A stretch of DNA of 64,000 bases from the human T2T-CHM13v2.0 reference genome, Homo sapiens. The notes below the pieces were generated by a model that was given only the letters and a program-made list of their open reading frames with translations, searched no databases and was not told the origin of the DNA. Both the position numbers and the translations under genes were made by a program. Location of the stretch: NCBI GenBank assembly GCA_009914755.4, contig CP068257.2, positions 37,056,001 to 37,120,000 of the forward strand, read 5' to 3'. Of this stretch, positions 8,964-38,032 are shown piece by piece (position 1 is the stretch's first letter; each line of letters starts with the position of its first letter).

Positions 8964-9359
8964 GATATGGTTTGAATCTGTGTCTCTGCCGAAATCTTGT
9001 TGAATTGCAATTCTCAATGTTGGAGGTGAGACCTGGTGAGAGGTCATTGGATCATGGGGGCAGATTTTCCCCTTTGGTGCTATTCTCATGATTGCATTCT
9101 CATAGGATCTGATTGCTTAAAAGTGTGTAGCACCTCCCCCCTTCTCTCGATCCTGCTCCTGCCGTGTAAGACAAGCCTGTTTCCCCTTCACCTTCTGCCA
9201 TGATTGTTAGTTTCCTGAGGCCTCCCCGGAAGCCAAGCAGATGCTGGAACCATGCTTTCTGTACAGCCTGCCGAACCATGAGCCAATTAAACCTCTTTTC
9301 TTTATAAATTCCCCGGTCTCAGGTATTTCTTTATAGCAGTGCAAGAACGGACTAATAAA
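8964..9359 (+). mobile_element. ERVL-MaLR LTR (MST-like), plus orientation
   Basis: tgatatggtttgaatctgtgtc...ccaagcagatgctggaaccatgctttctgtacagcctgccgaaccatgagccaattaaacctcttttctttataaattccccggtctcaggtatttctttatagcagtgcaagaacggactaataaa. Confidence 0.75.
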
Positions 9360-10511: not shown

Positions 10512-10878
10512 TGATATGGTTTGGCTCTGTGTCCCCACCCAAATCTCATCTCAAATTGTAATCCCCATGTGTCACGGGAGGGACCCAGGGGGAGCTGATG
10601 GGACTATGGGGGTGATTTCCCCCATGCTGTTCTTGCGAGAGTGAGAGAGTCTCCTGAGCTCTGATAGTTTAAAAGCAGCAGTTTTTCCTGTGCTTGCACT
10701 TCTCTTCCCTGCCGGCTTATGAAGAAAGTGCCTGCTTCCCCTTTGCCTTCCGCCATGATTGTAGCTTTTCTGAGGCCTCCCCAGCCATGCAGAACTGTGA
10801 GTCAATGAAACCTCTTTCTTTTATAAATTATCCAGTCTGTGGTATTTCTTTATAACAGTGTGAAACGGACCAATACAA
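10512..10878 (+). mobile_element. ERVL-MaLR solo LTR (THE1-like), plus orientation
   Basis: tgatatggtttggctctgtgtccccacccaaatctcatctcaaattgtaatccccatgtgtcacgggagggacc...ccttccgccatgattgtagcttttctgaggcctccccagccatgcagaactgtgagtcaatgaaacctctttcttttataaatta...gtgaaacggaccaatacaa. Confidence 0.8.
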
Positions 10879-12507: not shown

Positions 12508-13070
12508 TGTCTTAGTCCACATGGGTGGCCATTGAAAGCACCCCAGACTAGGCAGCTTAAACAACAGACATTTATCTTCTCACAGTTCTGAAGGCTGGAA
12601 GTCCAAGATTAAGTTTCCGGCAGGGTTGGGTTCCCAGCCAGGGCTCTCTGGCTGTGTTCTCACTTGGCAGAAAGATGGTGGGGAGGGGGGACAGTGAGCC
12701 CTAGTATCTCTTTTTTAAAGGCCACATATCCTTTATCAGATCAGAACTCTACCCTTATCACCTCATCTAACCTTAATGACTTTTGGCTGGGCGCGGTGGC
12801 TCATGCCTGTAATCCCAGCACTTTGGGAGGCTGAGGCGGGAGAATCACTTGAGGTCAGGAGTTTGAGACCAGCCTGGCCAACATGCTGAAACCCCATCTC
12901 TACTAAAAATACAAAAATTAGCTGGGCATGGAGGCGCGTGCCTGTAACCCCAGCTACTCAGGAGGCTAAGGAACAAGAATCACTTGAACCTGAGAGGCAG
13001 AGGTTTCAGTGAGCCAAGATCGTGCCACTGCACTCCAGCCTGGGGGACAGAATGAGACTCCATCTCAAAA

Positions 13071-25266: not shown

Positions 25267-26576
25267 CTGAGATTCAGCTGTATCAAAGAACTTGCTCCAA
25301 ACCCCTAGAGACAGTAGGTAGCAGGACCAGGACATCTAGTGCTGCCTCCCAGGCTGAAAAGCCCCTGGGGAAAAACAGAGTGATTCTGAATGTGCATTCA
25401 GGAGTAGGACCGCCTGGTTCATATCCAGCCCCACCACTAAGAGCTGTATGACTCAGGGAAAGATGGTTGCCAGCCCACCATCTGTGGTAGGTTCTTAATG
25501 AGCATTTGAGTGAGAGAGTTCATGGTTGGTGCTTAGACCATGCCAGGTGCAATATACGTGCTCAATACATGTTTTCAGTGGTTGTTTTCTTTTCAGCACT
25601 CCACTCTGCCCCTCCAGCTACTCCAGAGCCTCACTGTGAAGACACCCCCTTCTTTGGCACCTCACTGACTAGTCTTCAGACAGGCTCCAAGATGGCGGAT
25701 CCTCTGTGGTAAAGAGGATGTTGAGAAGATATCAGCTGTAAAGATCTGTTAAACCAAGTCCTCTACTGCATTCTAGTTTTCCTGACCATCCAAGAATATC
25801 TCTGAGTACTGTAATTCCTGTTCTCAGAGCTGTAGGAAACATTCAATTTGATTCTTTTCACCAGGTGTTGATAAAGTCACAGTACAAGTTCTGGGCAGTT
25901 CTAGAACTTCATGGAATCTGACAAAACTCCCAGTATGTCACTGAGTCACTTATAATTTAGTCATAGACATGATAAAACTGTTAGTGAACGAGGACTGCTT
26001 TGAGGGAAAGGAGAAGGAAATACACCCCAAGAAATGAACAGAAAAGGATGAGGCAAGGTTGTAAAACTAGAGGCTGGATGGCTGCAGGTGGAGAGGGAGG
26101 GAGCCTCCTGCTGGGAGGCAGCCCCTCCGAAGGCATGGAACTTCCGTTTCCAGCTCTTTCCAGTGGTTTGTCAGCCTACAAACCTAGCATGATATTGATG
26201 AATTAACTTACAACAAGAAATATAACCATGTGGTAGCTGATTACCACTGCCCCCTCTCTGAAGGCACAAATACACCAAAAGACAAATTATCATGAAAAGG
26301 CAGGTTAGCCATCTTGAAACCAGAGCCACTGGAGTGAGCCAAGGGAATCTTATGGCGTGGTCATCCACCTAGGACCATGATATCCCTGACACTTTCCTGT
26401 GCCCGATTCTGCACGTGACACCATCTCCATGGGGTGCGTTGTCAAAGTTTTGCCATCCTATGGAACAAGATATTACATGAGAAGCTTTCTCTGGGGCATC
26501 AAGAAAGTGATAGATTTTAGACTACAAGTGAATTGTAAAACAGACCGTAATGCAAACATTTAAAGTAGGTGATAAA

Positions 26577-26756
26577 GAACTAGTTAGATAATTTGCCCAC
26601 ATCAAGGGCATACAGAGGTCAGGCTTGAGAAGCAGAGGGTTAGTGAAAAGGATTTCTTTAGAGAAAGAACTAGTTAGATAATTCACCCACATCAAGGGCA
26701 TACAGAGGTCAGGCTTGAGAAGCAGAGGGTTAGTGAAAAGGATTTCTTTAGAGAAA
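26577..26756. repeat. 90-bp tandem duplication (2 copies, 2 mismatches)
   Basis: gaactagttagataattTGcccacatcaagggcatacagaggtcaggcttgagaagcagagggttagtgaaaaggatttctttagagaaa at 26577-26666, immediately repeated at 26667-26756 with TG changed to CA. Confidence 0.9.
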
Positions 26757-28596
26757 ACTATGAGACACCTTCTGGGGGTGGGTGAGGGAAGTGGGTGGGT
26801 GGAAGTGTGTGCCCCCCTTCATCTCAAGCCAAGAGACTGACCTCTATAGGGTTGATTGTGACCTTGCTCCATGTGCCCTGGATTTTGGGAGGCCTGGTGG
26901 ACTATGTTTGCCACCTGAGCAAAGAACCCATTGATGAGGAGCTGTGGGCTGTGGGCTTGCGGCAGCAGAACAAAGAGAGGAGCACTGGACACAGTGGGTT
27001 TGATGTCCACTTCCACCAAGAGGTGGTGCTGTCCAGGGACCAGGTGTGGGCACGTAGGAGAGAGACAGTGGATCTTAAAGCCTGCTCAGGGGACCTCCTG
27101 GAAAGGTGCTGGGACCACCACCAGGAAAGTCTGGGAGAGTAGAATTTGCACAACCATGGGCTGGAGCTGAGCAGCAGCAGGGAAGCCTGCATCACCACCT
27201 TGGGGAGGGCAGGTGAGCCTATGCAGCAGGATCCACAGCGATCCCACAAGGAACTCAGCTGCAAGCACAAGGCCATTGCTGTCACTTGGCTGAGTGCTGC
27301 TCTTCCCAGGGCTTGGTCACACGTGGGGCAGCACAGCTGTAAGACAAGGCCAATGCCTGAGACAGACAGTAGCCACCACTCCAGTGTCACTTAGATCTCT
27401 CTAAAGACAGAAAAGTAAGGAAAGAACCCAGAGTTCCATCAGGCAGAAAATAATTGAGAGAAGGAAACTTGCTGAAACCTTAATAGGATGCCTTCAAGCT
27501 ACACAAATCAGACGGAATAGTTAGGTAATGGTAAAAACTATTAAACCCAAGGGGCAGCTGAAGCGTGGGACCTGAGGCTTCCCATTTTTTAAAATGCTCA
27601 GCCAGTCCCAGTCCAGTGTTGCAAATAGAATCCTGCTTGTATCAGCTGGGGTTAGTTCAGAGAAACAGAAGCACTAGGAAGTGATAGACGATATGAGAGA
27701 TTTATTTTAGGGACTTAACTTTATGCAATTGTGGGAGCTGGTTAGAGAGTCTCCGTGAACCTGTTTTCTTTGTGTCTAGTGCTTATGCTTGAAGTCTGCA
27801 GGGTAGGCAGTCAGATTGGAAGAGCTAAAAATGATCTCCTAAATCACCTCCATACAAAACTAGAAAGAAAAATAGTGATGCCATCGGCTAATTTGCCTGC
27901 AGGAATAGGTAAAGAGAGCTCCATGCTAGGGGTGCTTGAGGTGGTTTCTGTAGATCCCCCAGAAGGCCACTGGCCCCAAAATTCTTCCTGGAAGTGAAGG
28001 TTGATGGGGAAAAGCATTTACATTCTCATCCATCATTTCCAAACCAATAATCCATTATTAACAAAAACTCATCATCCGTCACTAAGTAGGGTCAAGAGGA
28101 ATGAGTTGAGGGCAAAGATAATTCAGGTCAGGAAGTGGAGAAAGAGCTTCTGATAAACCTGATGGTTGTCAAAAGCCTTTCATATGCCTGCCATGTTTCC
28201 CTGGAGCCTCAAATCACCCCACTGGGCAAAATGGCCAGGCCTTATTATCCCCTGTTTATAGATAAAGAAACAGAGGCAGGTGCTGCTCAGCTGGGCCTCA
28301 GTGTCCTGACTCCCAGGACGGCAAGAGGCAAAGACCAGGCTGACAGGTGCCAGGGACAACTTCAGCCACTCCACTCCAAACTCCCCTGCTCATCAGACAA
28401 TAAATAAGACAGGCCTCAGTGAGGTGCCTTCTCTTCTGTAAGGCATCCCTGACACCCCTGAACCCCTCCCTCTGAATCCAACCTCATGCCACACACTCCC
28501 CAGTCTCTGTGCCACCAGCAAGATGGGTCGATGAATGGATTCAGGTTGTAAGGAGCCAGAGGATTTCACAAACTAGTATCAGAATTTCAGCAGGCA

Positions 28597-28977
28597 TCTC
28601 AGTCCATTCCTGCTGCTATAACAAAATACCTGACACCAGGTAATTTATAAATCATAGAAATGTATTCCTCACAACTCTGGAGGCTGGGAAGTCCAAGATC
28701 AACGTGCTGGCAGGCTCAGTGTCTGGTGAGGGCTGCTCTCTGCTTCCAAGATGACTCCTGTTGCTGCATCCTCCAGAGGGGACAAACGTTGCGTCCTCAT
28801 GTGGTGGGAAGGACAAATCACCCCCTCTAGCCCTTTCATAAGGTACAAACTCATTCATGAGAGCAGAGCTCTCAAGGCCCGATCACCTCCTAAAGGCTAA
28901 ACCTCTTCTTCTTGTTGCACTGGGGATTAAGTTTCAGCAAGAATTTTGGAGGGAACGCAAACATTCAAACCATAGCA
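28597..28977 (-). mobile_element. ERVL-MaLR solo LTR (MLT1-type), minus orientation
   Basis: tctcagtccattcctgctgctataacaaaatacctgacaccaggtaatttataaatcatagaaatgtattcctcacaactctggaggctgggaagtccaagatcaacgtgctggcagg...gatcacctcctaaagg...ctggggattaagtttcagcaagaattttggagggaacgcaaacattcaaaccatagca. Confidence 0.75.
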
Positions 28978-30620
28978 GCATCCCAGGCTGAAATCAGTAG
29001 AGCAAGGCCAGCCCAGAAGGTGAGAGATGGTTTCATCTACTTCCACCCTAATCTCATAGATAATAAATCATGCCGAGAATTGGAGGCCTTAAATACAGAA
29101 GGGATCCCAACGTGGCATCTGAGGTTCTCATCACATTCACTTACAGAGGAAACTCAAAATGCAGATGCTTGGAGCACGTGATCCAACAGGTTAGGGTTGG
29201 CTTTAGACTTTGCACTTTTAGCAAACACCCTTACGAGACTCTTAGGTAGAAAGCATCATTCCAGGGGAAGCATCATTATTTCCATCACATGGACAAGGAA
29301 AGGGGACCCAGCTGGCTTAAATGGTTTGTCCCAGGCTCCACAGCAATAGAGCTGCACAGAGAGGTCCTCCTACCCTGGCCCCAGCCTTTTCTCCCTCTCG
29401 CACGCCTCTTGCTGGTGGGAACCATATCACAGTCACCTGTAACCTGGCAATAGTATAAATGAATGAATAAATGAGTGAATGCTTTCCTGCAGGACCACAT
29501 CCAGGCGTGTTGCTGTGTATCCATCTGGGGCAGAGGCGGGTAACAGAAAACATCAAAAATGAGTGAGCCAGAGGATTTCACAAACTAGTATCAGAATTTC
29601 AGCATGCATCTCAGTCCATTCCTGTGTTGCAGGCTCATGACGTTTTGCTCCTTGGAAAATTGTTTTGAAAGAAGAAAGCTTGTAGGTTTCTGTGTTGATT
29701 TTGAAATATTCACTCTTCACTAAGACTCTGGAGGGAATAGACAAATGGCAGAAGAGGAGAGAGTTGGCATTTATTTTCTCAACACTCTCCCTTCACTGCC
29801 TGAGCAGGCTCACCTACACCCAGGGTGCTTCACAGCTGAGAGACATCACTGGGTGCAGCTTAAATGTTTCCAACTTTGCTTTTGCAATCAAGCCAAAAGA
29901 CAAACACACTTTTTCACTAAATTCCTTCCACCCAGGTTGCAAATTGACCTTATTTTAATTTGAGGTGCATGCCTCAGCCCTTAGACATTTTACCTATCTG
30001 ACAGTGAGAACTGACATGTTCCTTAGGCAGCCCTTCCGCTTTGGCCAATTTGACTGATTAATTGAAGAACTCTTCTTGATCCTCACAGAAAGATGTCTGG
30101 CAGTGTGATATTATGGTCACATTGCTTCTGCGCTTTTGCAGCACAATGATGTCGTGAGCAGAACACGTTTATCAGCTGGCCAGGCGCTCCGGGACCTGCC
30201 GCCTGCCAAACCCAGCAGTTACACTTCGCAGTTTCCCCGATTAAAAAGTGTTTAAACATCTGCTACTTAAACAACACTTAAAAAGTAATAAATTAAAAAC
30301 AGGGGGAATAGAACTTAAATAGAGAAAGTGAGCAGAGAACTAAAAGGTCTATATAAAGAGAGAAGCCATATATTTTCGTTTCTGAAATGATCCCTTGACA
30401 ACTTAAAAGTAAGCACTAACTCAAGCGTCCAGGGTATAAAATAAATCTGAATAAGCTTAATGAAAATCAGGCAGTAGTCCATAAAGAAATGCAATATCTT
30501 TGCCCTCTTGCTTCTAATGGGTCTGAGTTTGTTTTACATGGACTTTCAGGGATGACAGGGTCCCTCAGCCAGGAGGAGAGGAGCAATGTCCTGAAGCCAA
30601 AGCTCCTCCACCATGTGTGA

Positions 30621-31123: not shown

Positions 31124-31488
<365 letters not shown>

Positions 31489-32639
31489 TTAGATAACACC
31501 GTGTTGCCCATTTAGCTGAACCATCTCTTTCATATACATGCTGTTATTTGAGAATATTCTAACTCACAACATTCATCACACCCGTCTCAAGAAGAAAAGT
31601 TAATTTCTAGAATTAAAAGTTCGGCCAGGGCGTCATATGTAAAAGGAAAGATGGAAATTCGTGGGAACACAGCAGCTTGAATCAGTTCTATCAGTTTACA
31701 CAAATGCAATTCTATGTCTCTTCTGTATCACACACAATTTCATCTCCCACCCTCTTCTCATTCTCCGATGAAGATCTACACAACTTTGTACTAGTAGTTT
31801 ATTCTTTGTTAACAATAATTGCTTTGGTACTTAGCTCAAAAACAGATTTTCTTTTTTGCACATTGCTTATGTTACAGATGTGGGTGGAGGGATTTGTATA
31901 AATAAGCATTCAGAATGTGTATAATTTCTACTGCTTGCAGTTGTTCCTCACCCTTTTCCGGTCTGGACATAACACAAGCTTCTCTCTTTGGTCTCTTTTG
32001 CAATTACAGGGAACTTTAACTGGGGCTCTGATTGAATGTGTGTTTCACCCATGCATGGTAGAAATCCCAGCGTTGAAACAAGAGCTCAGGGCTTAGAATT
32101 CGCTGACCTGGGTCCAGCTCTCACTCTGCCTGACACCAGTGAGTGAACTTCAGGAAGATAGTGTTCCTTTCTTTTGCTAAATTTTCCTTTCTTTCCCTTT
32201 CCTAGAAGTAAAAATGGGCATAATAACAACCTCACATGACTCCCAGGACCATTGTGAAGTTCAAGTGAATGTATGTGTGCATTCAATCATTCCCAGGCTT
32301 TTATATGATGACTCTGTCCAGTAAATTCTGTCTCACAGTAACATATTTCAAAATAAATAAAAAGAAGGGCTTATAAGCAAAGACCTATAAAGGTGCCCTA
32401 CTGTTACTTGCAGAAAAGCAGTAGATTCCAAGAATAGAGTCTTGAGCCTTCAGTGTTACTACTCTTTTAAATAACATTTGTTTTTTTTCTAATTTACAAA
32501 TAAATACACATTTTTCCTAAAGGCAAAATTGAAAAAGAAAAAGAAAAATATCACTCAAAACAAGAGGTAACAATTCTTAACGTTTTTATTTTGTTTTCTA
32601 CCAGTCTACATCTATGAAGATACATGCTTTTCTTTCTTA

Positions 32640-32995
32640 TAAAATTTGGACCACAACACATGTGAATCTTTGTTCCCGTTATTAACTATTTCCTTTGGAT
32701 GGTTCCCAAGAGTGAAATTACTCCATCAAAGAGTAGTAACTCTTTGAAGGCTCTTCATAAATTCGTCTGCATCTTTTGAGAAAATCTGTACCAATTTAAA
32801 ATGCCATAAGTAGGGAATGAGAATACTTATCTTGCAGCAGCCTCCCAAGCACTAAATGTCATTATCTATTCAAAATCTTTGCCAAATTTCATTTATTTGA
32901 TTATTATTGATGCGGAATTATTTTTTAAATATCTGATTAGCCATTTGTGTTTCTTATTTTGCACATTGTATTTGTCAGGAAAACTTTGAGCCGCA
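32640..32995 (+). mobile_element. Old L1 (L1M) 3'UTR fragment, diverged
   Basis: tttggatggttcccaagagtgaaattactccatcaaagagtagtaactctttgaagg...tgccaaatttcatttatttgattattattgatgcggaattatt...gattagccatttgtgtttcttattttgcacattgtatttgtc parallels L1M 3'UTR consensus (tttggatatatacccagaagtggaattgctgg...gttggccatttgtatgtcttctttggagaaatgtctattcag). Confidence 0.5.
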
Positions 32996-34059
32996 AGTAA
33001 GAGAAAATATGACTTCCAATGATAGAAACAAAGAATTTTTTAAGAAGTCTGAAGAATTTGGCTTTAAGGGTTGGTCCAGCAGCTCAGCAATGCCAATGAC
33101 AGTTTTTCTGCCAATCTTATAGCCTCTCACACATGTGGGCAAAATGGCTGCTGAAGACCCAGCATCTCATCCTTATTCAAGCCAGAAAGAAGGGAGGAAG
33201 AACAAGGCAGCCATATCTGCCCCCACACACTCCTCACAAAGATTTCTGCTTATGTTCCATTGACCAGAATTATGCAACATGTCTACCCTAGCCACAAAAG
33301 AGCCTGGAAAAGATTATTAGTTTTTCCAGCCTCTATAATGGAGATGGGCAAGAGTGAAGGGGGCTTGAAAATGGATGTTGGGTTACTCAGCAGTCATGGT
33401 CTAGTCATTTGCACATCTTCACCATAAGTTTTTTTCGTGGTGATATTTAAAATACCAGCCAGCCTCCCTGGCAGTCCCTGGAGAAGCATTAGCTATTATT
33501 GAATAAATAAAACTACTGGTGATTATCTTAGTCCATACTACATAGGTTGACCACATGAGAGGCAGCTGGATCACTTGCCTAAGTCTGCATTTTCAAAGCA
33601 GCAGTCTCCATGTGACCCATATACTGATGGGAAACCAGTTTCTTCCTCAGTTCATGACACCTAAATGCATTTGGCATGTTTCTTCACGAAAGCCATCATG
33701 AAAAATTTCTTATATTTCTGCATGTCATACAGATGGGGGAAAATCACATCTTTATTTTGGTTGCACTCTGTCCTCTGGGGCCCTGAAGAGTGAATACCAT
33801 ACATACCACACAGCCTATATATTCTATTGGACCCTCCCAAGCTCACTCTCCAAATTTTATCTGAATTCATCTACAATTATACCTGATGGTACAACTGTTG
33901 AAGAAGTGGAAACTCAATTTCAAACTATATAAATGGATAGAAATACTTTCATATTTTCCTGATTATATATTACTTAATTTTATTAAGGCTGTTCTTTGAA
34001 ATACAGGCATCTTTTTATTTTAAAAAAATTAAGGTAAAATTTATCATTATTTTCATGGT

Positions 34060-34310
34060 GAGGCAGCACAGCGTTTGGGGAAGAACTACTATCTGGGTTC
34101 CAATCCCGGATTTGCTGTTTCCCATGGGGAACCACGGCAGTTATATAACCTCAGTTATGTCTTAGTATCCTCATTTGTTAAATATGGTAATATCAATAAT
34201 ACCAAAAACATATAATTTATGAGAAGATTAAATAAGATAACTTGCATAAAGCCCTAGCTCAGTGCCTGGTACCTGATCAATAGTTAATGATGAATTTTTG
34301 TTAGCATTAT
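34060..34310 (+). mobile_element. MIR SINE fragment
   Basis: ctgggttccaatcccggatttgctgtttcccatggggaaccacggcagttatataacctcagttatgtcttagtatcctcatttgttaaatatggtaatatcaataataccaaaaacatataatttatgagaagattaaataagataacttgcataaagccctagctcagtgcctggtacctgatcaatagttaatga matches MIR core and 3' region. Confidence 0.7.
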
Positions 34311-35084
34311 TAGATTATTGATATGTGTGTGATATATATGTAACATGAGGATGATATACATTAATATTTTTATGTAGCTCATTATTCTTCTGGATTTATT
34401 TCAATGTATATGGGAGAATCTAGTTAAATCTTTTTTCCAAGTACAGTTAATTTTTCTATCACTACTTGTTGAGTAATTCATTCCTTCCCCATCGGTTTGT
34501 GGCATTTTCTTTCTTGTGTATAGTTCTGTTTTTATATACACTAGAATCTATTTGAACACATCTTACCTGATACTATAGAATGTTACAACAGTAACCTGTC
34601 ATTTTAGTTGCTGGTAGAATCATTCATAGTATGCCGAAGACTGCTTAAAAATTTGTAGAACCAAATCAATTTGGATTGTTACTTTAAATTATAACAAAAA
34701 ACAATCCAGAGAAATTCAGAAGTCAAATACAATAAGTGAATTATTTGTTTTTAATCTAGGAGGAAAAGCATTGAGAGCTTAGTATGTACTAGGCACAGAA
34801 CTAATAGTCCACCCATTACCCATGTGCAGTTATGCCCACTGTACAGTTGAAGAAGTGGAAACTCAGTTTCAAGTATATAATTGACTGAGTCAAAGAGACT
34901 GAGGTAAGAGAAGCTCATCACACAGTCACAGCAGAGCCGGGACTCAGTCCTAGCAGCCCAGACTCTGAAGGGCTCTGCTAGGTGATCCCTTCACTGATCT
35001 CTGCGTATACGAAGAGTCTCTAAGCATAAACAACATGGAAAAGAATAACAGAGAAATATGTCAGCAGATTGGACTAAATAACAA

Positions 35085-35194
35085 ATATATATATATATAT
35101 ATATATGCCATTTTGCCCACATGCGTGAGAGGCTATGAGATTGGCAGAAAAACTGTCATTGGTATTGTTGAAATATATATATATATGTGTGTGT
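35085..35194. repeat. (AT)n microsatellite interrupted by a 61-bp non-repeat insertion, then (AT)7(GT)4
   Basis: (at)11 at 35085-35106, then gccattttgcccacatgcgtgagaggctatgagattggcagaaaaactgtcattggtattg at 35107-35167, then ttgaaatatatatatatatgtgtgtgtc. Confidence 0.85.
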
Positions 35195-35400
35195 CTTAGA
35201 AGTAAATAACATTGGCCTTTTGGCTACAAGCAAGTGTAAAAGCAAATGACAATGTAGGGAAATATCTGTTACAATAAGAAAAAAACTTAGAAATTTATCG
35301 TGGAAACTGATGAAAAAACACTAATGACGTCAAGGGCAGAAACCATAAAAGAAATGATTAACAGACGTGGCTTGATAGTCATTTAAGCTTTTTCTTATCA

Positions 35401-35750
<350 letters not shown>

Positions 35751-35924
35751 TTAACTAACCTGATTAAAATGTACTCCAACAAAGATAATACACACTCAGT
35801 ATCCTTTTTAAATAATTCTTAATAAATTTTGTCAAAACAAAAGACAAGCAATTCAATGTGAATATGAACAGAAATGTGTAAAATTTTTTCACAGAAAGAG
35901 AAATACAAATTGACAATTGACATA

Positions 35925-36640
35925 CAAAAAAAAGTTAAATTTCACTCACTTATAATCAAAGAAATGCAAACAAGGATAATAATGGAATTTGTTTTGGTTT
36001 ATCCAATTGGCAAAGACAATAAACACATAACTCCTAATGTTGATGAAAACATAGAGAATGAAACATTCTCATGTAGACATTCCTTACAAGAATATAAATT
36101 GATATAAGCTTTTTGGAGGGCAAGTTGGCCATGTGTGTCAATGACCACAAGAATTTGCATACATTTTTCCCAGCAATAATAGGATGTTTAAGGAAAAAGT
36201 TTAAAGTTAAAGGAAAAAACTATGGGTATGCATGGTGATTTCTCTTTGCTTTATTTATAATCATTAAATATTAAAACCACCCTAATGTCCAACAATATAG
36301 GATTGCAATGAAGTAAATAAAATATGATATATTTATACAGAGGGGAAACTGATGCTTTAGAAGAATATTTAGTGATATGAAGAAATACCTGACAGTGTGG
36401 AAATCGTCAATATAGTCACAAAATAGAAAATAATGCATTGACTAAAAATGGCATTGTGGAAACTGTGGTAAGATGTTCACAATTTATATTTGAATATAGT
36501 AAGCAACAGATACAGAATTATATGGTATGATCCTATTTGTAAAATAAAATGTACTATATACACATAATTTTGTATATATAAAAAAGTTACTAATTTACTT
36601 ATTTTCTAAGTTTATTCTAAGTTTTCTGTAATAAAATGGG
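35925..36640 (+). mobile_element. Old L1 (L1M-type) ORF2 3'-end/3'UTR fragment, highly diverged
   Basis: tcaaagaaatgcaaacaagg...tggagggcaagttggccatgtgtgtcaatgaccacaagaatttgcatacatttttcccagcaataataggatg...ccaccctaatgtccaacaatataggattgcaatgaagtaaataaaatatgatatatttatacagaggggaaact aligns in order with L1 ORF2 C-terminal consensus (agaaatgcaaatcaaaacc...tggtgggactgtaaactagttcaa...actagaaataccatttgacccagcaatcccattactgggtat...ccaaatgtccaacaatgatagactggattaagaaaatgtggcacatatacaccatggaatact). Confidence 0.55.

Positions 36641-36857: not shown

Positions 36858-38032
<1,175 letters not shown>

What the first reader, a model, noticed from the sequence alone, without database searches (positions are those of the whole stretch)
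33088..35194. 61-bp inverted repeat pair 2 kb apart, second copy sitting inside an (AT)n microsatellite (templated-insertion signature)
33088-33148 (caatgccaatgacagtttttctgccaatcttatagcctctcacacatgtgggcaaaatggc) reappears as its reverse complement at 35107-35167 with 3 mismatches. The downstream copy splits an (AT)11 ... (AT)7(GT)4 microsatellite, and neither copy has transposon-like termini or TSDs. AT-dinucleotide repeats are cruciform-prone, fragile, and documented hotspots for fork-stalling and template-switch repair. An inverted 61-bp patch copied from about 2 kb away is what such repair produces. The interval between the copies also contains a 45-bp direct repeat (33891-33937 versus 34842-34887: acagttgaagaagtggaaactcaRtttcaaRYtatataa), which suggests further local template switching.
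Basis: seen in the sequence. Interest (0 to 1): 0.5.

Follow-up and report, generated by a model that had tools for sequence, protein, structure and literature searches.

The report
Old inverted DNA patch splitting an AT microsatellite
A 65-base piece of an ancient retroelement remnant was copied backwards and pasted about 2 kb away into the middle of an (AT)n(GT)n microsatellite, which is an old scar of DNA break or replication repair in primate junk DNA and has no sign of function.

Summary
Window 33084-33148 reappears reverse-complemented at 35107-35171: 65 nt ungapped, 61/65 identical, all four differences transitions. It scores 57 against 18.7±2.3 in resampled sequence, and the 64 kb holds no third copy. 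Deleting 35107-35172 (65 templated nt plus one extra A) restores an in-phase AACAA(AT)18(GT)4.

I could establish the direction of copying. Copy 1 is a native internal part of an old, degraded LTR-like interspersed repeat (about 33072-33415). An independent family member from a metagenome contig (L019) aligns colinearly across both boundaries of copy 1, and a second (L023) crosses the right boundary. Copy 2 has no family homology beyond the patch and shares copy 1's private features.

It is not recent: 6% divergence gives P≈0.008 for an origin after a human-chimp-level divergence, with a point estimate near 30 Myr. There is no junction microhomology, so an end-joining capture step is more likely than classical MMBIR.

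The source segment is bracketed by a 7-nt inverted repeat (CAGCAGC/GCTGCTG; 0.25% of random segments), which may have set the limits of the copied tract.

This is a known kind of mutation with an unusual donor distance, and its interest is low to moderate.

The parts
33084..33148 (+). Copy 1: the source (template) segment, a native internal part of an old LTR-like interspersed repeat
   Evidence: The 65-nt match to 35107-35171. Family member L019 aligns colinearly through both of its boundaries, and L023 through the right one. The copy-1-only part against L019 scores 20 vs 11.0±1.9 in shuffles, 0/500 reaching it.
35107..35171 (-). Copy 2: the derived, reverse-complemented 65-nt patch (orphan)
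   Evidence: 93.8% identical to the reverse complement of copy 1, with sharp ends. It shares copy 1's private states relative to L019, and there is no family homology in 34700-35500 beyond it.
35172..35172 (.). One extra A between the patch and the right AT tract (untemplated, or a 1-nt ambiguity)
   Evidence: Direct reading of the junction.
35085..35106 (.). (AT)11, the left half of the split microsatellite
   Evidence: Tandem Repeats Finder: period 2, 11.0 copies, 100% matches; sequence.
35173..35194 (.). (AT)7(GT)4, the right half of the split compound microsatellite
   Evidence: Sequence. Joining it to the left half restores an in-phase (AT)18(GT)4.
33072..33415 (+). Old, highly diverged LTR-like interspersed repeat that contains copy 1. 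By memory its core motif is a MaLR/MLT1-type motif; no annotation tool was available to name it.
   Evidence: The core motif was found in 22 independent metagenome contigs. The family profile hits 33132-33291 at E=1.5e-5. Single-sequence nhmmer gives L019 33072-33348 at E=2.9e-9, L023 33138-33311 at E=7e-9, and L008 reaching 33415.
33077..33083 (.). Left arm (CAGCAGC) of a perfect 7-nt inverted repeat that brackets the source segment
   Evidence: Pairs with 33147-33153 (GCTGCTG). A bracket of 7 nt or more within ±2 nt occurs around 49 of 20000 random 65-nt segments. Stem-only DNA energy is -4.3 kcal/mol, and the stem is not in the MFE structure.
33147..33153 (.). Right arm (GCTGCTG) of the bracketing inverted repeat; it overlaps the last 2 nt of copy 1
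33868..33935 (+). Direct repeat copy A: an orphan partial copy of B
   Evidence: 68 nt at 78% to B, with a 30-nt core at 93%. No homology to B or C outside this stretch. It is B's only relative in the window plus contigs (E=0.009).
34821..34883 (+). Direct repeat copy B: lies inside a SINE-like element (about 34760-34990; MIR by memory)
   Evidence: B aligns with a third copy C (34050-34300, minus strand) on both sides of the 68-nt stretch.
35442..35750 (+). Alu element 270 bp to the right of copy 2 (context only)
   Evidence: About 20 paralogues in the window. Rfam Metazoa_SRP-like hits at 35445-35726.

Best explanation
Copy 2 (35107-35171) is a templated, reverse-complement insertion. A chromosome break or stalled replication end arose inside an ancestral (AT)n(GT)n microsatellite. 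The 3' end of the strand to the left of the break used that same strand's sequence about 1.96 kb upstream as a template (33148 down to 33084, inside an old LTR remnant). About 65 nt were synthesised. The new strand then dissociated and was joined to the other broken end with one extra A and essentially no microhomology.

An intrastrand foldback on a resected 3' tail, or equivalently a switch to the complementary template within one fork, necessarily gives an inverted copy. Synthesis ended exactly at the foot of a 7-bp GC-rich inverted repeat that brackets the source, which may have blocked or dislodged the polymerase.

The event is old, on the order of 10-70 Myr with a point estimate near 30 Myr, is probably fixed, and has no detectable function.

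Shown: the duplication, its sharp ends, the split in-phase microsatellite, the direction of copying (copy 1 to copy 2), and the non-recent age. Inferred: that a break occurred in the AT tract, the foldback/synthesis/end-joining sequence of steps, and the role of the short stem.
For: The 65-nt pair at 93.8% is far beyond chance. Homology ends abruptly, and copy 2 is flanked by (AT)11 and A(AT)7(GT)4. Excising 35107-35172 restores an in-phase (AT)18(GT)4.

Copy 1 is native. L019 aligns colinearly from 33072 to 33348 across both of its boundaries (E=2.9e-9), and L023 crosses the right boundary (E=7e-9). The copy-1 part alone is significant (0/500 shuffles). Copy 2 shares copy 1's private states against L019, and no family homology surrounds it.

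The geometry fits. The appended top-strand sequence is the reverse complement of upstream top-strand sequence, as foldback priming requires. The published hybrid model (foldback priming + Pol delta synthesis + NHEJ capture) gives 2-150 bp inverted insertions with 0-5 bp microhomology at the capture junction (PMC11724301).

The source tract is bracketed by a 7-nt perfect inverted repeat, seen around only 0.25% of random segments. Four transitions, including one CpG decay, fit neutral ageing of a dead patch.
Against: No orthologous sequence from another species could be obtained, so the empty site has not been seen and the age rests on four substitutions, with a wide confidence interval.

There is no microhomology at the presumed priming junction (...ATAT|GCC against source ...CAGCA|GCC), which is atypical for both MMBIR and foldback priming.

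The loop or donor distance of 1,958 nt is 10-20 times larger than in the documented short-range classes: within 100 bp for MMB-TI, a 100-200 bp search radius for four-point events, and a 41-nt loop in yeast.

The reconstructed (AT)18 is below the (AT)23 at which fragility is seen experimentally.

Only one family member (L019) spans the whole of copy 1.

The 7-bp stem is not in the predicted MFE structure and was noticed post hoc.

A third, unseen source copy elsewhere in the genome cannot be excluded with these tools.
Confidence: 0.72

Rival explanations
1. Capture of a free DNA fragment. The 65-nt source tract was released or displaced as a single- or double-stranded fragment, for example a displaced flap or nascent strand, or the loop of the CAGCAGC/GCTGCTG stem-loop cut at its base. 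It was then ligated by end joining into a break in the (AT)n tract, and the source was restored from the sister chromatid.
For: No microhomology at either junction plus one untemplated A. The fragment boundaries coincide with the foot of a 7-nt inverted repeat. Insertion of displaced or distant fragments at breaks is documented in yeast (PMC11724301).
Against: Nothing in the sequence distinguishes this from synthesis-then-capture. Free-fragment capture shows no preference for a donor in cis 2 kb away or for inverted orientation, whereas foldback explains both. The stem is weak (-4.3 kcal/mol) and absent from the MFE structure.
Confidence: 0.15
2. Replication-based fork stalling and template switching (FoSTeS/MMBIR) at the AT tract. 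The nascent strand stalled in (AT)n, switched to the complementary template about 2 kb away within the fork, copied 65 nt, and switched back.
For: Inverted orientation and cis proximity. AT repeats stall forks and break in a length-dependent way (PMC12972899). Inverted templated insertions are the MMBIR signature (PMC8421209).
Against: MMBIR-type events are defined by microhomology at both switch points and by templates within about 100 bp. Here there is 0-1 nt of microhomology and the template is 1,958 bp away. This rival overlaps heavily with the best explanation and differs only in how the free 3' end arose. The confidence given here is for the strictly replicative, microhomology-primed version.
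Confidence: 0.08
3. Two independent members of one interspersed repeat family that happen to lie 2 kb apart in opposite orientation, possibly homogenised by gene conversion.
For: Copy 1 does belong to an old repeat family.
Against: Copy 1 and copy 2 are 94% identical, while copy 1 aligns to family member L019 only with many gaps and low identity. Copy 2 carries copy 1's private states. No family homology flanks copy 2, and its flanks are microsatellite, so there is no substrate for gene conversion. There is no third copy in the 64 kb.
Confidence: 0.02
4. A rearrangement or mobile-element signature: terminal inverted repeats of a 2.1-kb DNA transposon, breakpoint duplications of a 2-kb inversion made by staggered breaks, or an L1-mediated retro-insertion.
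For: An inverted pair flanks a 2-kb segment. Both copies sit at the centre of self-complementary sequence: CAGCAG|CTGCTG and (AT)n.
Against: No target-site duplication and no transposon-type termini. The family alignment is continuous across both edges of copy 1, so there is no element end or inversion breakpoint there. The staggered-break inversion model predicts AT repeats next to copy 1 and on only one side of copy 2, and neither is seen. There is no poly(A) on either strand of copy 2. The interior holds older SINE-like elements.
Confidence: 0.02

Closest known systems
Foldback-primed inverted insertions at double-strand breaks with NHEJ capture (yeast Break-Ins study, PMC11724301)
   Same: An inverted copy of sequence on the same side of the break. 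The size (65 nt) falls within the reported 2-150 bp. The capture junction has 0-1 nt of microhomology (reported 0-5, median 2) and one added base. [quoted passage not shown]
   Different: The loop is about 1,958 nt here against 41 nt in that system. There is no inverted microhomology at the priming site. This is a mammalian germline event and an evolutionary fossil, not an induced break.
MMBIR-type templated insertions (MMB-TI; PMC8421209) and FoSTeS
   Same: The insertion is an inverted copy of a nearby template in cis, and there are no transposon features.
   Different: MMB-TIs are defined with the template within 100 bp and with microhomology at both junctions. Here the template is 1,958 bp away and microhomology is absent.
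Short-range template switch mutations, the four-point model (Loytynoja and Goldman 2017, PMC5453318)
   Same: [quoted passage not shown]
   Different: Those events are searched for within 100-200 bp and usually replace a few tens of bases. This one is a pure 65-nt insertion from about 2 kb away.
Structure-forming AT/TA repeats as break sites (Flex1/FRA16D; PMC12972899, PMC11797062)
   Same: The recipient site is a pure (AT)n tract able to form a hairpin or cruciform.
   Different: Experimental fragility needs (AT)23 or longer, and (AT)14 is inert. The tract reconstructed here is (AT)18 and its length at the time of the event is unknown. No breakage was shown here.

Membership tests
MMBIR-type templated insertion (MMB-TI, PMC8421209) | The inserted sequence is an inverted copy of a template in cis | tested here: met
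   65 nt, 93.8% reverse-complement match
MMBIR-type templated insertion (MMB-TI, PMC8421209) | Template located within about 100 bp of the insertion | tested here: not met
   1,958 nt lie between the arms; definition taken
MMBIR-type templated insertion (MMB-TI, PMC8421209) | Microhomology at both junctions | tested here: not met
   Left junction 0 nt. Right junction at most 1 nt, plus one extra A
Foldback-primed inverted insertion with NHEJ capture (PMC11724301) | The appended sequence is the reverse complement of the same strand on the same side of the break | tested here: met
   Copy 2's top strand equals the reverse complement of upstream top-strand 33148..33084
Foldback-primed inverted insertion with NHEJ capture (PMC11724301) | Short inverted microhomology next to the break primes the synthesis | tested here: not met
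   The terminal ...ATAT does not pair with source 33149 onward (TGCTG). Later slippage of the AT tract could have erased the original end.
Foldback-primed inverted insertion with NHEJ capture (PMC11724301) | Insert size 2-150 bp and a capture junction with 0-5 bp of microhomology | tested here: met
   65 nt; 0-1 nt of microhomology plus 1 untemplated A
Independent member of an interspersed repeat family | Family homology continues beyond the shared 65 nt, and divergence from copy 1 is typical of the family | tested here: not met
   No profile or L019 hit in 34700-35500. The flanks are microsatellite. Identity is 94%, against a gapped, low-identity match to L019
DNA transposon with terminal inverted repeats | Target-site duplication flanking the outer ends, with the element ends at the repeat arms | tested here: not met
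   The flanks ...CCAGCAGC and AATATAT... are unrelated. The family alignment runs through the outer edge of copy 1
Inversion with duplicated breakpoints (staggered-break model) | A rearrangement breakpoint at the inner edge of each inverted copy | tested here: not met
   L019 and L023 are colinear across the inner (right) edge of copy 1. AT tracts lie on both sides of copy 2
L1-mediated retro-insertion | 3' poly(A) tail and flanking target-site duplication | tested here: not met
   No A-run or T-run at either end of copy 2
Cruciform-forming fragile (AT)n site | Uninterrupted tract long enough to extrude, (AT)23 or longer in yeast assays | tested here: inconclusive
   The reconstructed tract is (AT)18 today. 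The threshold comes, and the ancestral length is unknowable from one genome
MaLR/MLT1-type LTR (host element of copy 1) | Match to the curated family consensus (Dfam/Repbase) | not testable with these tools
   Only indirect evidence. A core motif recalled from memory retrieved 22 real contigs, and these align to window 33072-33415. The family name itself rests on memory.

The most novel reading that the evidence does not exclude
This may be one example of an under-recognised class of germline events: kilobase-range, microhomology-free inverted templated insertions at dinucleotide microsatellites, made by long-loop foldback of a resected 3' tail. In this reading, the copied tract is delimited by a short GC-rich stem in the single-stranded donor. 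Current detectors look only within about 100-200 bp and require microhomology, so they would miss such events. RepeatMasker would also mislabel the patch as an independent fragment of an old repeat.
Probability: 0.15. Interest if true: 0.45.

Novelty: new member of a known kind. Interest (0 to 1): 0.25.

Why it matters
If correct, this is a clean and fully resolved fossil of a templated insertion in the primate germline. The donor, the recipient, the direction of copying and both junctions are readable to the base. Its donor distance (about 2 kb) and its lack of microhomology fall outside the operational definitions used to catalogue such events.

It would serve as a worked example for extending template-switch detectors to kilobase range. 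It is also a caution that short orphan fragments of old repeats next to microsatellites can be repair patches and not transposon insertions.

It has no evident functional consequence. It lies in repeat-rich non-coding DNA, has no RNA-family match, and decays neutrally.

Tried and rejected
**Routes to orthologous or paralogous DNA**
- ORF handles mostly failed. Of 10 local ORFs, only the 69-aa ORF at 33661-33870(-) is in the protein collection.
- Its contigs are human and break at the (AT)n, and it has no non-identical relatives.
- The ORF through copy 1 has no relatives, and an ORF to the right of copy 2 is not on record.
- An exact 36-mer scan of the metagenome contigs found nothing. That scan has almost no power, because the collection holds well under one genome-equivalent of host DNA.
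- A first remembered LTR motif found nothing in the viral or prokaryotic genome collections. A second motif worked.

**Naming the microsatellite's flanks as LINE-1 ORF2**
- phmmer against solved structures found nothing relevant.
- tblastn with a remembered ORF2p probe gave only weak hits far from the junction: E=0.001 on the left arm and E=0.1 on the far right arm.
- The idea that the microsatellite lies inside an L1 therefore remains an untested lead.

**A larger, older inverted duplication as the origin**
- The outer 70% inverted match (32862-33047 vs 35804-36030) is offset by about 600 bp from the diagonal of the 65-nt pair and is far more diverged.
- It is best read as two unrelated old L1-like fragments.

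**miRNA or hairpin reading of AT-patch-AT**
- Rfam hits are far below the gathering thresholds, and the fold is not significant (z=-1.6).

**Copy 1 as an insertion into the palindrome CAGCAG|CTGCTG**
- Rejected, because family members are continuous across both edges of copy 1.
Full report
**What the window is.** The 64 kb carries about twenty Alu copies (Rfam SRP-like hits on the one at 35445-35726). A Logan contig from a human sequencing run matches 31462-35106 at 99.95%. This is human, or very close primate, repeat-rich non-coding DNA.

**The observation.** 33084-33148 and 35107-35171 are reverse complements over 65 ungapped nucleotides, 61/65 identical. All four differences are transitions, and one is a CpG retained in copy 2 and decayed in copy 1. 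The similarity stops abruptly at both ends, and sensitive gapped searches do not extend it. The pair scores 57 on a +1/-1 scale, against 18.7±2.3 (max 23) in resampled sequence, with E=1e-17 in the window self-search. The 64 kb holds no third copy. Copy 2 lies between (AT)11 (35085-35106) and A(AT)7(GT)4 (35172-35194). Deleting 35107-35172 yields AACAA(AT)18(GT)4, in phase.

**Direction of copying.** This was the main open point, because copy 1 also sits in self-complementary DNA. It is bracketed by CAGCAGC (33077-33083) and GCTGCTG (33147-33153), and deleting it would leave the perfect palindrome CAGCAG|CTGCTG. Only 49 of 20,000 random 65-nt segments have such a bracket. Either copy could therefore have been an insertion.

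I suspected from memory that 33060-33400 is a degraded MaLR-type LTR. A remembered core motif (AGCTGCAAGGGAGGCTGGGAAA) retrieved 22 low-coverage contigs from metagenome assemblies, which gave real and independent family members. A profile built from them hits the window at 33132-33291 (envelope 33104-33312, E=1.5e-5 against all 64 kb).

In single-sequence nhmmer, contig L019 aligns colinearly with window 33072-33348 (E=2.9e-9). That span covers the left flank of copy 1, the 65 nt (with indels), and the right flank into the family core. L023 enters at 33138 and also runs through the right boundary (E=7e-9), and L008 carries the homology on to 33415. The copy-1 portion alone against L019 scores 20, versus 11.0±1.9 in shuffles, with 0 of 500 reaching it.

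Copy 1 is therefore an original internal part of an old interspersed repeat, with no insertion or rearrangement boundary at either edge. Copy 2 shares every private state of copy 1 relative to L019, and there is no family homology around it. Copy 2 is the derived patch.

**Alternatives excluded.**
- Independent family members. 94% identity is incompatible with the gapped, low-identity relationship among family members.
- Gene conversion. Copy 2's flanks are microsatellite, so there is no homologous substrate.
- DNA transposon with terminal inverted repeats. There is no target-site duplication, and family continuity runs across the outer edge of copy 1.
- Inversion with duplicated breakpoints. 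That model predicts a breakpoint at the inner edge of copy 1 and AT repeats beside copy 1. Neither is present.
- L1-mediated insertion. There is no poly(A).
- A weaker outer inverted match (32862-33047 vs 35804-36030, about 70%). It lies on a diagonal offset by about 600 bp and looks like two unrelated old LINE-like fragments.
- RNA gene. Rfam hits over AT-patch-AT are far below threshold, and the fold is not significant.

**Age.** Four transitions in 65 nt give K2P=0.066. The Poisson 95% interval is 1.7-15.8%. With about 1.0-1.2e-9 substitutions per site per year per lineage (my own knowledge of primate neutral rates), the point estimate is 27-33 Myr, with an interval of roughly 7-79 Myr. If the two copies had diverged only as much as human and chimpanzee have (1.2%), four or more differences would occur with P=0.008. 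The patch is therefore unlikely to be a recent or polymorphic event. The AT tract lengths probably are polymorphic: contig L001 ends exactly at the (AT)11/patch junction, as expected at a branch in an assembly graph. The longest contig on record (4,003 nt) is about the length expected if some samples assemble through the patch to the next Alu (inference).

**Mechanism.** The sequence shows that the top strand to the left of the AT break point has been extended by the reverse complement of its own upstream sequence. This is the geometry of an intrastrand foldback on a resected 3' tail, or of a switch to the complementary template within one fork.

The junctions carry no microhomology on the priming side (...ATAT|GCC against source ...CAGCA|GCC). 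On the other side there is at most 1 nt, plus one untemplated A.

The closest documented model is the hybrid pathway described in yeast. One break end folds back and is extended by Pol delta, and the product is then unwound and joined to the other end by NHEJ or alt-EJ. That pathway gives inverted insertions of 2-150 bp with 0-5 bp of microhomology at the capture junction (PMC11724301).

MMBIR-type templated insertions and four-point template switches are also inverted cis copies. They are defined or searched for with templates within 100-200 bp, and MMB-TIs additionally require junction microhomology (PMC8421209; PMC5453318). This case fails those two criteria.

The copied tract ends exactly at the foot of the 7-bp CAGCAGC/GCTGCTG stem. 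That suggests, but does not prove, that a small hairpin in the single-stranded donor halted or displaced the polymerase. The stem alone is worth -4.3 kcal/mol and is not in the predicted minimum-energy fold.

Whether the AT tract itself caused the break cannot be decided. [quoted passage not shown] The tract reconstructed here is (AT)18, and its ancestral length is unknown.

**The 45-bp direct repeat.** It is real. 33868-33935 (A) matches 34821-34883 (B) over 68 nt at 78%, with a 30-nt core at 93%. B lies inside a SINE-like element, because it aligns with a third copy (C, 34050-34300, minus strand) on both sides of the shared stretch. A has no such flanks. A is also the only relative of B detectable in the window and the 22 contigs, while C is not detected at that threshold. 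A and B are therefore closer than ordinary family members. A is best read as an older secondary partial copy of B, in direct orientation about 950 bp upstream. The mechanism is undetermined, and it need not be linked to the inverted patch.

**Context.** A scan of the whole window for low-copy short duplications found several other sharp-edged pairs, all direct: 28553/29565 (60 nt, 98%), 55153/56705 (117 nt, 96%) and 9175/10730 (53 nt, 85%). There are also two tandem pairs. The pair studied here is the only short-range inverted one. Local patch duplication is thus not rare in this region, which tempers how remarkable this case is.

**Verdict.** The templated-insertion reading is supported and its direction is now established. 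The implied recency is not supported, and the specific replicative mechanism is not distinguished from break repair with end-joining capture. This is a new, well-resolved example of a known kind of mutation, with an unusually long donor distance and no microhomology. It has no evident function.

Noticed in passing
window 33077-33083 and 33147-33153: A perfect 7-nt inverted repeat, CAGCAGC/GCTGCTG, brackets the source copy exactly. Deleting the 65 nt would leave the 12-nt palindrome CAGCAGCTGCTG. Such a bracket is seen around only 0.25% of random segments. It may have set the limits of the copied tract, but this is unproven and was noticed post hoc.
   Followed up: partly
window 28553-28612 and 29565-29624: A 60-nt direct repeat at 98.3% with sharp edges, 953 bp apart. 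The first copy directly abuts the start of an LTR-like sequence (tgctataacaaaatacc...ggaggctgggaagtccaagatcaa).
   Followed up: no
window 55153-55269 and 56705-56821: A 117-nt direct repeat at 95.7% with sharp edges, 1,436 bp apart. The second copy directly follows the end of a SINE-like sequence.
   Followed up: no
window 9175-9227 / 10730-10782; 26574-26756; 52284-52673: Further low-copy duplications: a 53-nt direct pair at 85%, 1.5 kb apart, and two tandem duplications (93 nt x2 at 98%, and about 195 nt x2 at 83%).
   Followed up: no
window 32862-33047 and 35804-36030: An outer inverted match of about 70% on a different diagonal from the 65-nt pair. It is probably two old LINE-1-like fragments covering the same ORF2 region in opposite orientations. 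Translations weakly resemble a remembered ORF2p probe (E=0.001 and 0.1), and solved-structure searches found nothing.
   Followed up: partly
window 33868-33935 vs 34821-34883 (and 34050-34300, minus strand): Direct repeat A/B: B is native to a SINE-like element, and A is an orphan partial copy that is closer to B than the third family copy C is. It is an older local duplication of unknown mechanism.
   Followed up: partly
L001 (Logan SRR16100404), equal to window 35106..31462: This independent human contig ends exactly at the (AT)11/patch junction, and all 2-5 kb contigs carrying the nearby ORF behave similarly. That suggests length heterozygosity of the AT tract. The longest contig on record (4,003 nt) fits assembly through the patch to the Alu at 35442.
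   Followed up: partly
window 35442-35750: An Alu insertion with an 11-nt target-site duplication, gttaagtaacc/gttaactaacc, carrying one mismatch. Its tail has evolved into an (AAAC)n array at 35726-35749.
   Followed up: no
window 36900-37040: A second LTR-like fragment (ggaggctgggaagtccaagattaag...cttcctggttatagacag). It matches 12558-12615 at 86% and gives a weak family-profile hit.
   Followed up: no
L017 vs L019: These two metagenome contigs share about 400 nt at roughly 97% identity but differ completely upstream of L019 position 149. That is the part of L019 homologous to copy 1. They are either paralogous loci or one of them carries an indel or is a chimera.
   Followed up: no
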